Positions 35,821-36,729 of a stretch of DNA of 64,000 nucleotides are shown one piece after another; positions within the stretch are counted from its first letter, which is position 1; each line of letters begins with the position of its first letter. The notes beneath the pieces are model-generated. The model was not told where the DNA came from. It did no database searches and was given only the letters and a program-made list of their open reading frames with translations. The DNA comes from a virus: IMG/VR virus record IMGVR_UViG_3300044856_000229, positions 1 to 64,000 of that record. One strand, given 5' to 3'. Made by a program: the position numbers and the translations under genes.

Positions 35821-36729
35821 TTAAAAATCAAATACTTCTTTTAACTTTTTAGCACGACTTGGCTGACGAAGTTTCTGTAATGCTTTTGCTTCAATCTGAC
35901 GAATACGTTCCTTAGTTAAACCATAAATTTTTCCAACCTCTTCAAGTGTCTGCGGTTTATTTGTTTTTATTCCAAAACGATAACGAAGAATATCTGCTTC
36001 ACGTTCTGGTAAAGTATTTAAAACATTTTCAATAATCCCCTGTTTTTCAACCTCAAGATAAGCAGTTGCCGGATTTACACAAGTAGTATCTTCAATAAGA
36101 GAAGCTACTGTTGCATCATCATCACCGTCACCAAGCGACATATCAAGACTACCAATATCCGCAGTATATTCCAAAAGCTCTCTAACCTCAGAGGTTTTCA
36201 TGTCCATTGCTTCCGCAATTTCTTTTACTTTTGGATCTCTACCAAGTTTTATTGATAATTCTCTTTCTGTTTTTCTTACTTTACTAATGGCTTCAACAAT
36301 ATGTGCGGGAATACGAATAGTTCTGCTCTGGTCAGAAATAGCTCGTGTAATTGCCTGTTTAACCCACCAAGTTCCATATGTTGAAAAACGATAACCTTTT
36401 GTATAATCAAACTTTTCAACAGCTTTCATTAAACCAACATTTCCTTCCTGAATTAAGTCAAGAAAAGGAATACCGCATCCAATATAATGTTTTGCTACAG
36501 AAATTACAAGACGTAAATTTGCATTTACAAATTCATTTCTTGCCTCCATATCTCCCTCTTGGATTCTTTTAGCTAATTCAAGCTCTCTTTCTTCTGTTAA
36601 AAGAGGATATTTACTTACCTCTTTCATATACATTTTTATACTGTTATCACTAATAACAACCTCTTTCTCATTTTTAATTTCTTTTTCTTCGTCGTTATTT
36701 TCTTCTACAAAATTCTCTAAATCGGTCAA
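35821..36729 (-). CDS. sigma-70 family RNA polymerase sigma factor
   Basis: 302 aa; region 2 motifs [16 protein letters not shown]...[37 protein letters not shown]; region 4 [27 protein letters not shown]. Confidence 0.85.

What the first reader, a model, noticed from the sequence alone, without database searches (positions are those of the whole stretch)
35821..36729. Phage sigma-70-family factor and two distinct promoter classes
A full RpoD-like sigma factor (regions 2-4) is encoded inside the tRNA island.

Most intergenic regions carry TTGATT + 17-nt conserved A/T spacer (TTTTATAAAAAATAATA-like) + TATAAT on the minus strand, in more than 30 copies, for example 13214-13242, 22662-22690 and 39110-39138.

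The right end (59.6-64 kb) instead has perfect TTGACA-17-TATAAT promoters with unrelated spacers.

The conserved spacer and -35 variant suggest recognition by the phage sigma factor (middle or late genes).

The consensus promoters suggest host-RNAP early genes.
Basis: partly seen in the sequence, partly recalled or inferred. Interest (0 to 1): 0.5.

Follow-up and report, generated by a model that had tools for sequence, protein, structure and literature searches.

The report
Phage sigma factor, two promoter classes
An uncultured large phage encodes a close relative of the bacterial housekeeping sigma factor and uses two distinct, conserved promoter types: host-consensus promoters for its first genes and a TTGATT/AT-spacer type for the next ~60 kb. 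Whether the phage sigma reads the second type is plausible but unproven.

Summary
The ORF at 35821-36729(-) is an intact sigma-70-family protein with regions 1.2, 2, 3 and 4 and no region 1.1. It is 50-58% identical to bacterial primary sigmas and under purifying selection. TTGATT-N17-TATAAT occurs 25 times, all on the gene strand (0.08 expected), or about 33 times with one mismatch. Spacers are about 2% GC, in a T-tract then A-tract pattern. TTGACA-N17-TATAAT occurs 10 times (0.03 expected), nine of them at 59.9-63.8 kb, with TGn, A-rich upstream DNA and unrelated spacers.

Relatives show that this cluster is the tail of a ~13.5-kb array of ~23 perfect consensus promoters in front of small ORFs, a typical early host-takeover module. 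Both classes are conserved across a family of gut/rumen phages that carry this sigma.

The claimed link between the phage sigma and class A is only partly supported. The sigma gene itself sits behind a class A promoter that also has TGn. Its DNA-reading residues are almost those of sigma-A. Its one change, K at E. coli position R584, is not required, because relatives with R use TTGATT too. Enterococcus phage EF1 has similar AT-spacer promoters without this sigma. Class A is absent from structural genes, so it is not a late class.

The parts
35821..36729 (-). Phage sigma-70-family gene, 302 aa, TTG start. It has regions 1.2, 2, 3 and 4 and no region 1.1. The N-terminal 28 aa are acidic.
   Evidence: Pfam, NCBIfam, PDB alignments, dN/dS 0.10-0.18
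36763..36791 (-). Promoter of the sigma gene. It is class A (TTGATT) but carries an extended -10 (TGT TATAAT). It lies 33 nt upstream of the start codon.
   Evidence: The same arrangement is seen in L002, L019, L003, L171, L179 and L192.
22558..41041 (-). tRNA island: 24 ARAGORN tRNAs plus one extra Rfam tRNA hit. It is punctuated by class A promoters.
3543..3571 (-). Class A variant (TTGATA), upstream of ORF 3088-3513
6640..6668 (-). Class A variant (TTGATA), upstream of ORF 6335-6604
7551..7579 (-). Class A promoter
8791..8819 (-). Class A variant (-10 TATTAT), upstream of ORF 8224-8763
13214..13242 (-). Class A promoter
15984..16012 (-). Class A promoter, upstream of ORF 15602-15961
16499..16527 (-). 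Class A promoter, upstream of ORF 16049-16468
19089..19117 (-). Class A promoter, upstream of the 825-aa ORF 16568-19045
22529..22557 (-). Class A promoter, upstream of the phrog_850 RNA-binding protein gene
22662..22690 (-). Class A promoter, 34 nt upstream of tRNA-Cys. A hairpin lies immediately upstream.
24800..24828 (-). Class A promoter, upstream of ORF 24442-24717
25215..25243 (-). Class A variant (TGT TATACT), upstream of tRNA-Gly
25931..25959 (-). Class A promoter
31605..31633 (-). Class A promoter
35101..35129 (-). Class A promoter, upstream of tRNA-Gln
35525..35553 (-). Class A promoter, upstream of tRNA-Ala
37637..37665 (-). Class A variant (TTGATA), upstream of tRNA-Asp
38925..38953 (-). 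Class A promoter, 93 nt upstream of tRNA-Met
39110..39138 (-). Class A promoter. Its 29-mer is identical to the one at 38925.
39765..39793 (-). Class A promoter, upstream of ORF 39454-39726
42784..42812 (-). Class A variant (TTGATA), upstream of ORF 41907-42740
43025..43053 (-). Class A promoter
43218..43246 (-). Class A promoter
45934..45962 (-). Class A promoter, upstream of the peptidase-like ORF 44827-45903
49260..49288 (-). Class A promoter, upstream of the 591-aa ORF 47440-49215
49705..49733 (-). Class A promoter, upstream of ORF 49473-49673
50752..50780 (-). Class A variant (-35 TTTATT)
51390..51418 (-). Class A promoter, upstream of ORF 51083-51355
55379..55407 (-). Class A promoter, upstream of ORF 55103-55339
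56868..56896 (-). Class A promoter, upstream of ORF 56268-56819
57373..57401 (-). Class A variant (-10 TATTAT), upstream of ORF 56937-57335
59215..59243 (-). First TTGATT promoter after the class B cluster. It has TGn and an atypical spacer, and no ORF within 200 nt.
26833..26861 (-). Intermediate promoter (TTGACT, AT-rich spacer, no TGn), upstream of ORF 26253-26810. It is conserved in L002 and L019.
47375..47403 (-). Isolated class B-type promoter (TTGACA, TGA TATAAT, AT-rich spacer), upstream of ORF 46919-47350
59541..59570 (-). Class B-type promoter with an 18-nt spacer (GTGTGA TATAAT). It is followed by GC-rich non-coding sequence.
59991..60019 (-). Class B promoter, upstream of ORF 59671-59979
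60133..60161 (-). Class B promoter (GTGTGG TATAAT), followed by a short GC hairpin plus a T-run
60613..60641 (-). Class B variant (TTGACT ... TGT TATACT), upstream of a 99-aa ORF
61549..61577 (-). Class B promoter, upstream of the 131-aa ORF starting at 61522
61650..61678 (-). Class B promoter, in tandem with the one at 61549
62315..62343 (-). Class B promoter, upstream of the ORF ending at 61682
62681..62709 (+). Class B promoter on the opposite strand (GTGTGG TATAAT). It drives a candidate small GC-hairpin RNA.
63419..63447 (-). Class B promoter, upstream of ORF 63021-63389
63672..63700 (-). Class B promoter, upstream of the 55-aa ORF starting at 63641
63780..63808 (-). Class B promoter, in tandem with the one at 63672

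Best explanation
The window covers the leftward-transcribed early and middle arm of a ~178-kb uncultured phage of a Firmicutes-type host. Its transcription is organised in two tiers of sigma-70-type promoters.

Tier 1 (class B). These are perfect TTGACA-17-TGnTATAAT sites with A-rich, UP-like upstream DNA, packed roughly every 500 bp in front of small ORFs. This is the host-takeover module. It is read by unmodified host sigma-A RNA polymerase immediately after infection.

Tier 2 (class A). These sites read TTGATT, then a T-tract/A-tract spacer, then TATAAT, mostly without TGn. They drive the tRNA island, RNA-repair and nucleotide-metabolism genes, and the phage's own primary-like sigma.

Proposed order of events (inferred, not shown):
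1. Host sigma-A fires class A weakly. The sigma gene is favoured because its class A promoter keeps an extended -10.
2. The phage sigma has no region 1.1 and a conserved core-binding region. It accumulates, competes for host core polymerase, and becomes the main factor at class A promoters in a self-amplifying loop.
3. Early promoters decline.

Discrimination between the classes would rest on the two 3' bases of the -35 hexamer together with the shape of the spacer. It would not rest on new -10 or -35 motifs.

Late structural genes belong to neither class.
For: - The two classes are discrete and spatially segregated.
- In class A, -31/-30 is TT in 25 of 29 sites. These sites consistently avoid the sigma-A optimum, although the phage builds perfect TTGACA elsewhere. 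That argues for selection on a distinct readout.
- The architecture is conserved in about 25 IMG/VR phage contigs whose sigmas are only 44-55% identical.
- TTGATT dominates in lineages with a canonical ERIRQ recognition helix (146 of 327 AT-spacer sites). The -35 is heterogeneous in EF1, which lacks the sigma, and in the RERARQ sub-lineage.
- The sigma is under purifying selection. It keeps its core-binding, -10, TGn and HTH residues.
- Its one change in a base-contacting residue, K273, is at E. coli R584, the residue that reads -31 (PMC2613000, PMC12262734).
- The sigma's own promoter keeps TGn in the window, L002, L019, L003, L171, L179 and L192.
- The class B array matches the early pattern.
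- Class A is absent from the structural arm.
Against: - The sigma gene lies inside the class A regulon, so class A cannot depend strictly on it.
- Its DNA-reading residues predict sigma-A-like specificity.
- K versus R at position 584 does not co-vary with the -31 base or with TGn use.
- Enterococcus phage EF1 has class-A-like promoters and a class-B-like early array with no RpoD-like sigma detectable by tblastn.
- In phage K, early and middle promoters are both sigma-A-like (PMC11598898).
- The association between the sigma and TTGATT is confounded by shared ancestry, with only 2-3 independent contrasts.
- A second candidate regulator, phrog_5767, sits behind an early-type promoter.
- There are no expression data.
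Confidence: 0.45

Rival explanations
1. Host sigma-A RNA polymerase reads both classes. The class A signature serves other purposes. It might tune promoter strength, make transcription independent of UP elements or TGn so that class A escapes a phage-imposed shut-off of early promoters, or respond to supercoiling (the phage encodes a type II topoisomerase). Some T-runs also double as terminator tails. On this reading the phage sigma is an auxiliary or back-up housekeeping sigma. It would keep transcription going when host sigma-A is scarce or inactivated, and it has no separate promoter specificity.
For: - TTGATT keeps the most important TTG and A of the -35, with a perfect -10 and a 17-bp spacer.
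- The sigma's recognition residues are almost identical to sigma-A.
- The sigma gene itself is behind a class A promoter.
- EF1 has the same architecture without this sigma.
- In phage K, early and middle promoters are both sigma-A type (PMC11598898).
- The sigma sits among other genes that boost expression capacity: tRNAs, RNA ligase, nucleotidyltransferase and PhoH.
- Several class A sites directly follow hairpins.
Against: - Near-invariant T at -31 and -30 and a conserved T-tract/A-tract spacer, kept across sigmas only 44-55% identical, go beyond what relaxed sigma-A recognition requires.
- In this phage, class A has lost TGn (2 of 29) and yet drives most of a 60-kb arm.
- Where the sigma is absent (EF1), the -35 is heterogeneous.
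Confidence: 0.3
2. Class A specificity comes from another phage protein that binds the TTGATTTTTT box or the T-tract/A-tract spacer. This could be a MotA/AsiA-style appropriation of sigma region 4, or an activator or repressor that binds the spacer. The -10 would still be read by whichever sigma-70-type factor is present. One candidate is the 352-aa phrog_5767 protein with a C-terminal HTH, which is expressed from an early-type promoter next to the early array, outside the window.
For: - The conserved block runs from -35 through about -19. About half of the spacers contain an A/T-only inverted repeat, ATTTTT(T)..(A)AAAAAT.
- phrog_5767 homologues are present in EF1, which has class-A-like promoters but no RpoD-like sigma.
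- That gene is behind TTGACT/TTGACA-17-TATAAT in all relatives examined.
- T4 middle promoters set a precedent: a -30 box combined with an intact -10 (PMC2988021).
Against: - phrog_5767 has no Pfam sigma or DNA-binding domain hit at E<=0.01. Its 'sigma factor' or 'LuxR' labels come only from database annotation.
- The inverted repeat is imperfect and made only of A/T, so it is hard to separate from composition.
- No AsiA or MotA homologue was found among the proteins scanned, but the small early ORFs were not searched exhaustively.
Confidence: 0.15
3. The class A copies are a dispersed repeat, such as a mobile or recombinational cassette. They are not working promoters.
For: Some copies are identical across the 29-mer and the leader, for example 38925 and 39110.
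Against: - All 25 copies are co-oriented with the genes.
- They sit 22-48 nt upstream of an RBS and start codon, or upstream of tRNAs.
- The flanks upstream of -35 are unrelated.
- Conservation follows the -35 / spacer / -10 / leader pattern, and it persists in phages with very different sequences.
Confidence: 0.03

Closest known systems
Bacillus phage SPO1 temporal programme: sigma-A early promoters clustered in the host-takeover module, then gp28, then the gp33/34 sigma cascade
   Same: Both have a dense cluster of strong host-consensus early promoters in front of many small ORFs, followed by a second promoter class and a phage-encoded sigma-70-family protein (PMC13401047 for the SPO1 outline; the rest from my own knowledge).
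   Different: The SPO1 sigmas are highly diverged and read motifs unlike the host consensus. gp28 is expressed from an early promoter. Here the sigma is 50-58% identical to primary sigmas. Its putative promoters keep TATAAT and TTGA. The sigma gene lies behind the second-class promoter.
Kayvirus (Staphylococcus phage K) early and middle promoters
   Same: Early and middle units both carry sigma-A-like -35/-10 elements, often with TGn. Late promoters do not conform (PMC11598898). The same pattern is seen here, and the structural arm lacks both classes.
   Different: Phage K does not show a sharply distinct, spacer-conserved second class. It also has no primary-like sigma of this type.
T4 early versus middle promoters (AsiA/MotA sigma appropriation)
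   Same: The second class keeps a good -10 and replaces the canonical -35 with a different box centred near -30. T4 early promoters also have conserved AT-rich spacers (PMC2988021).
   Different: T4 uses host sigma-70 remodelled by AsiA plus the DNA-binding MotA. No homologues were identified here, and this phage brings its own sigma.
Bacterial group 2 (primary-like, non-essential) sigma factors such as RpoS, HrdA-D and cyanobacterial SigB-E
   Same: They have regions 1.2-4.2 without region 1.1, conserved -10/-35 reading residues, and promoter specificity that overlaps the primary sigma with subtle discriminators.
   Different: This one is encoded by a lytic-type phage and is short (302 aa). 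It falls below the curated cut-offs of all the RpoD and RpoS models listed.
phiEco32 / 7-11 gp36 and other characterised phage sigmas
   Same: A phage sigma binds host core polymerase to drive middle and late genes (PMC8948821, PMC4331800).
   Different: Those are ECF-like, two-domain sigmas with promoter motifs unlike the host's. This one is a four-region, RpoD-like protein.
Enterococcus phage EF1 group (about 140-kb phages; closest cultured relatives found)
   Same: They share a phrog_5767 homologue at 40% identity, a tRNA cluster, an early array of TTGACA promoters with GC hairpins, and a second class with a T-rich/AT spacer, TATAAT and a conserved leader.
   Different: EF1 has no RpoD-like sigma. 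The second-class -35 is heterogeneous (TTGAAA, TTGACT, TTGATT, TTGAAT), and these promoters often carry TGn (42% of AT-spacer sites).

Membership tests
Sigma-70 family | Region 2 (core binding, -10 recognition) | tested here: met
   PF04542 scores 77 bits against a cut-off of 24. [18 protein letters not shown] and the W433/W434/Q437/T440 equivalents are conserved.
Sigma-70 family | Region 3 (including H455/E458 for the TGn contact) | tested here: met
   PF04539 scores 64 bits. 'PAHIVEA' aligns to 'PVHMVET'.
Sigma-70 family | Region 4.2 HTH for the -35 | tested here: met
   PF04545 scores 70 bits. The helix reads T-K-E-R-I-R-Q, against T-R-E-R-I-R-Q in bacteria.
Group 1 (primary, RpoD/SigA) sigma | N-terminal region 1.1 | tested here: not met
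   There is no PF03979 hit, while most bacterial hits carry it. The protein starts 28 aa before region 1.2.
Group 1 (primary, RpoD/SigA) sigma | Score above the curated RpoD equivalog cut-offs | tested here: not met
   NF004208 scores 374 against 555. NF006666 scores 366 against 572. TIGR02393 scores 309 against 354. Among the 25 models listed, only the superfamily model TIGR02937 passes.
Group 1 (primary, RpoD/SigA) sigma | Invariant Arg at E. coli 584, which contacts -31 | tested here: not met
   The query and P0001-P0009 have K. 108 of 110 bacterial hits have R.
Phage sigma cascade of the SPO1 gp28 type | Early promoters of host consensus clustered in a takeover module | tested here: met
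Phage sigma cascade of the SPO1 gp28 type | The sigma gene is transcribed from an early, host-type promoter | tested here: inconclusive
   The promoter is TTGATT (class A) with TGn, which makes it a hybrid. In L159 it is TTGACA.
Phage sigma cascade of the SPO1 gp28 type | Cognate promoters that host sigma does not recognise | not testable with these tools
   This needs in vitro transcription or in vivo genetics. By sequence, class A differs from the consensus at only 2 of 12 hexamer positions.
T4-type sigma appropriation (AsiA/MotA) | An anti-sigma plus a protein that binds the -30 box | not tested
   The larger ORFs were scanned with PHROGs and showed no such hit. The small early ORFs were not searched individually.

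The most novel reading that the evidence does not exclude
The phage sigma and the TTGATT plus T-tract/A-tract promoters form a natural orthogonal pair of housekeeping type. The sigma is primary-like. It separates its own roughly 35 promoters from host-type ones using only two -35 bases and spacer shape. It switches itself on through a TGn-bearing copy of its own promoter. The pair has co-evolved across a large family of gut and rumen phages.
Probability: 0.3. Interest if true: 0.65.

Novelty: new variant of a known kind. Interest (0 to 1): 0.45.

Why it matters
Characterised phage sigma factors are highly diverged and read promoters unlike the host's (PMC9429907). This case may be different. 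Here a phage carries a near-primary sigma, and its likely target promoters differ from the host consensus only subtly. The pattern is conserved across dozens of uncultured gut and rumen phage genomes.

If the link holds, it would show how little sequence change is needed to partition RNA polymerase between two sigma-70-type regulons. It would also provide a ready-made orthogonal sigma/promoter pair for Firmicutes engineering. Independently of that, the two motifs give a sequence-only way to assign early and middle genes in a large, uncultured phage family.

Tried and rejected
1. R584K as the determinant of T at -31. Rejected as a requirement. L003, L159, L171, L177-L186, L203 and L211 have R and are equally TTGATT-rich. 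K also does not track the loss of TGn.
2. Class A as a late class. Rejected. There are no class A sites on the structural arm in 39 related loci.
3. Identifying the phage or its host through near-identical DNA in INPHARED. There was no match. Protein hits reach only distant large Firmicutes phages. The host remains unknown.
4. Monophyly of the phage sigmas. The NJ tree places them as long-branched lineages outside the tight bacterial sigma-A cluster, but not as one clean clade. The result is inconclusive.
5. The spacer as a true palindromic operator. There are only A/T-run inverted repeats of 6-7 nt in about half of the sites, which cannot be separated from composition.
6. GC hairpins overlapping the -35 of class B. 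They occur in 5 of 21 sites in the relative's array and in none of the window's copies.
7. Rfam families for the GC-rich transcripts downstream of some class B promoters. None were found. The folding z-scores were weak.
8. The second 'sigma factor' (phrog_5767). It has no Pfam sigma domain and lies outside the window, so it is kept only as a candidate in one rival explanation.
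Full report
WHAT IS THERE

The window has 33% GC and is transcribed almost entirely from the minus strand. It carries 24 ARAGORN tRNAs between 22.5 and 41 kb, plus one extra Rfam tRNA hit. PHROG scans of about 30 larger ORFs found PhoH, RNA ligase, several phosphoesterases, an RNase H/exonuclease, a nucleotidyltransferase, an HNH endonuclease, an AAA ATPase, NUDIX and peptidases. No clear structural genes were found; one ORF had weak minor-tail and lysis-domain hits. 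There is no near-identical DNA in INPHARED. The nearest cultured phages are distant large Firmicutes phages. IMG/VR holds near-identical contigs, including a 177.7-kb one.

THE SIGMA GENE

The ORF at 35821-36729(-) encodes 302 aa.
- It matches Pfam regions 1.2, 2, 3 and 4.
- It aligns end to end with the C-terminal 270-280 residues of S. aureus, B. subtilis, C. difficile and M. tuberculosis SigA and E. coli RpoD, at E about 1e-91 to 1e-78.
- It is 50-58% identical to primary sigmas of many Firmicutes and Atribacteria, with no single donor lineage.
- It lacks region 1.1 and falls below all the RpoD and RpoS cut-offs listed. Structurally it is therefore primary-like (group 2-like), not a bona fide RpoD.
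- dN/dS against relatives is 0.10-0.18.
- The residues that read -12 (the W433, W434, Q437 and T440 equivalents), TGn (H455, E458) and the -35 (E585, R586, R588, Q589) are conserved.
- The exception is K273 at the position of E. coli R584. That position is R in 108 of 110 bacterial hits and K in all nine close phage relatives. R584 contacts the -31 base pair, and R584A shifts preference from C:G to A:T (PMC2613000, PMC12262734).

THE TWO PROMOTER CLASSES

Class A:
- TTGATT-N17-TATAAT has 25 exact copies, all on the gene strand, against 0.08 expected.
- With up to one mismatch there are 37 copies against 3.3 expected.
- Against an intergenic-only Markov null, 20 are observed and 0.017 expected.
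- The logo shows a bounded conserved block. There is no conservation upstream of -37. The block reads TTGATT, then a spacer TTTT-(A/T)2-3-AAAAA-(A/T)5 with 2% GC, then TATAAT, then a leader AwATAyAwAAr-wTAAAG-AGGAG.
- Only 2 of 29 sites have TGn.

Class B:
- TTGACA-N17-TATAAT has 10 exact copies against 0.03 expected. There is also an 18-nt-spacer copy and a TTGACT/TATACT copy.
- Spacers average 38% GC and are unrelated to one another. 9 of 10 sites have TGn. The upstream 25 nt are A-rich.

Both classes sit 22-48 nt upstream of an RBS and start codon, or upstream of tRNA genes. Intermediates are few: 26833, 47375, 59215 and 36763.

CONTEXT FROM RELATIVES

I walked along the 177.7-kb relative in four hops.
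- The window's class B cluster is the downstream third of a ~13.5-kb array of about 23 perfect TTGACA-17-TATAAT sites. They lie in front of 50-160-aa ORFs.
- Diverging from that array on the other strand is a phrog_5767 gene, followed by a possible terminase (weak PHROG hit only), a portal protein and a virion structural protein. The phrog_5767 gene is annotated 'sigma factor' but has no Pfam sigma domain.
- This structural arm has no class A site in about 12 kb.
- Across 39 related loci, the structural strand carries 0.0 class A sites on average, and 37 loci keep at least 3 class B sites in the adjacent array.
- Beyond the window's left end lie topoisomerase II, NAD ligase, Sak4 and a DnaB-like helicase. 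These have only degenerate class A-like sites.

Class A is therefore a middle regulon covering tRNAs, RNA repair, nucleotide metabolism and part of replication. It is not a late one.

DOES THE SIGMA READ CLASS A?

A profile search of IMG/VR returned about 25 phage contigs with RpoD-like sigmas 44-55% identical to this one. Their flanks carry the same architecture: TTGATT, a T-tract/A-tract spacer, TATAAT and the same leader. Where the early array is in view, class B is present too (L200, L211, L218). This conservation argues that the class A signature is functional.

Three tests weaken a strict link between the sigma and class A.
1. K or R at position 584 makes no difference. TTGATT accounts for 68 of 155 AT-spacer sites in the K group and 78 of 172 in the R group.
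2. The sigma gene itself is behind a class A promoter in every relative examined except L159. That promoter normally carries TGn. In this phage that is exceptional, since only 2 of 29 class A sites have it. This fits a bootstrap by host sigma-A. It also means host RNAP must recognise class A.
3. Enterococcus phage EF1 is the closest cultured relative found. It has no RpoD-like sigma by tblastn, yet it has a class-B-like early array and a second class with a T-rich/AT spacer, TGn-TATAAT and a conserved leader.

One comparison favours the link. In EF1, and in the sigma sub-lineage with RERARQ in the recognition helix, the -35 is heterogeneous (TTGAAA, TTGACT, TTTATT) and TGn is more frequent. 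In lineages with a canonical ERIRQ helix, TTGATT dominates. These contrasts are few and confounded by phylogeny.

VERDICT ON MECHANISM

The best-supported model is a two-tier sigma-70-type programme. Class B is read by host sigma-A as early promoters (high confidence). Class A is a distinct middle class. Host sigma-A can start it, and the phage's primary-like sigma probably amplifies it or takes it over (confidence about 0.45).

The rivals are:
- host sigma-A reads everything and the phage sigma is an auxiliary housekeeping sigma (0.3);
- another phage factor, for example phrog_5767 or a protein that binds the spacer or the -30 box, confers class A specificity (0.15);
- class A is a non-functional repeat (0.03).

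COMPARISON WITH KNOWN SYSTEMS

The layout resembles the SPO1 host-takeover module and sigma cascade, the sigma-A-like early and middle promoters of phage K (PMC11598898), and the logic of T4 early and middle promoters (PMC2988021). The sigma itself resembles bacterial group 2 sigmas.

It differs from characterised phage sigmas, which are highly diverged (PMC9429907). It is near-primary, and its putative promoters differ from the host consensus at only two hexamer positions plus the spacer. I found no paper describing this motif or this phage family, but only three literature searches were completed.

LIMITS

- The host is unknown.
- There are no expression data.
- All temporal assignments are by analogy and gene content.
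- Statements about the early array, the structural arm and phrog_5767 rest on relatives and not on the window.

Noticed in passing
window 62681-62800 (+); also 60085-60161 (-) and 59470-59570 (-); relatives L112 2339/3875, L113 85, L134 1556/3081, L139 435/1586/2686/3633, L147 1053, L200: Perfect early-type promoters ending in GTGTGG-TATAAT drive short GC-rich hairpin transcripts, e.g. GGTGAATTCGGCCTAGCACAGTCGTGCGCCGGCCGC. In relatives, 1-4 copies lie antisense to the early ORF array. An 8-sequence RNAalifold gave a 9-bp stem, with compensatory double changes at 7 pairs. There is no Rfam family. The function is unknown. They may be a family of small early RNAs.
   Followed up: partly
window 59244-59534 (-): About 290 nt of 55-60% GC sequence that appears non-coding. 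It lies directly downstream of the 59541-59570 promoter, in a 33% GC genome. ORFs here have implausible composition. The MFE z-score is only -1.6 and there is no Rfam hit.
   Followed up: partly
window 59600-60100 and 62660-62830: Repeated TTGTGCAA(T)/TTGCACAA boxes flank the promoters that drive the GC-rich transcripts. They are also seen upstream of the first class B promoter in L109. They may be a regulator binding site.
   Followed up: no
window 35143-35280 (-): An Rfam tRNA hit of 138 nt (46.7 bits) that ARAGORN did not report. It may be a tRNA with an insertion or intron, located between a class A promoter and tRNA-Ala.
   Followed up: no
window-wide, +1 to about +30 of both promoter classes: Classes A and B share a conserved leader, TATAAT-AwATAyAwAAr-wTAAAG-(A)AGGAG. 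A related leader, TAATTATAAAGTTAAATAAGG, follows promoters in Enterococcus phage EF1. It may be a conserved start-site/5'UTR element for translation or RNA processing.
   Followed up: partly
L109 3483-4541 (-), equivalent to L112 7686-8744 (+); outside the window: A 352-aa protein matches phrog_5767 'sigma factor' (E=3e-49) but has no Pfam sigma domain. Homologues occur in Enterococcus EF1/VRE9, Brevibacillus Sundance, Geobacillus E3 and C. difficile phiCD211. It heads the structural arm and is preceded by TTGACT/TTGACA-17-TATAAT in all relatives examined. It is a candidate middle or late regulator.
   Followed up: partly
L023 / L109 class B array (relative); Enterococcus phage EF1 62.9-68.8 kb: In 5 of the 21 class B sites of the relative's array, the -35 hexamer lies inside a GC-rich hairpin preceded by an A-tract. 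On the opposite strand this reads as an intrinsic terminator. The same is visible in EF1. None of the window's own copies show it. It is reminiscent of the promoter/stem-loop cassettes of T4-type phages (from my own knowledge).
   Followed up: partly
L109 5527-6396 (+) (relative, upstream of the early array): A Thg1-like tRNA-His guanylyltransferase (PF04446, 1.5e-30) is encoded next to the early array. It adds to the phage's tRNA-maintenance repertoire: RNA ligase, nucleotidyltransferase and 24-25 tRNAs.
   Followed up: no
window 35821-36729 (-), first 28 codons: The sigma's N-terminal 28 residues contain 11 D/E and 3 K/R. This short acidic tail stands where region 1.1 would be.
   Followed up: no
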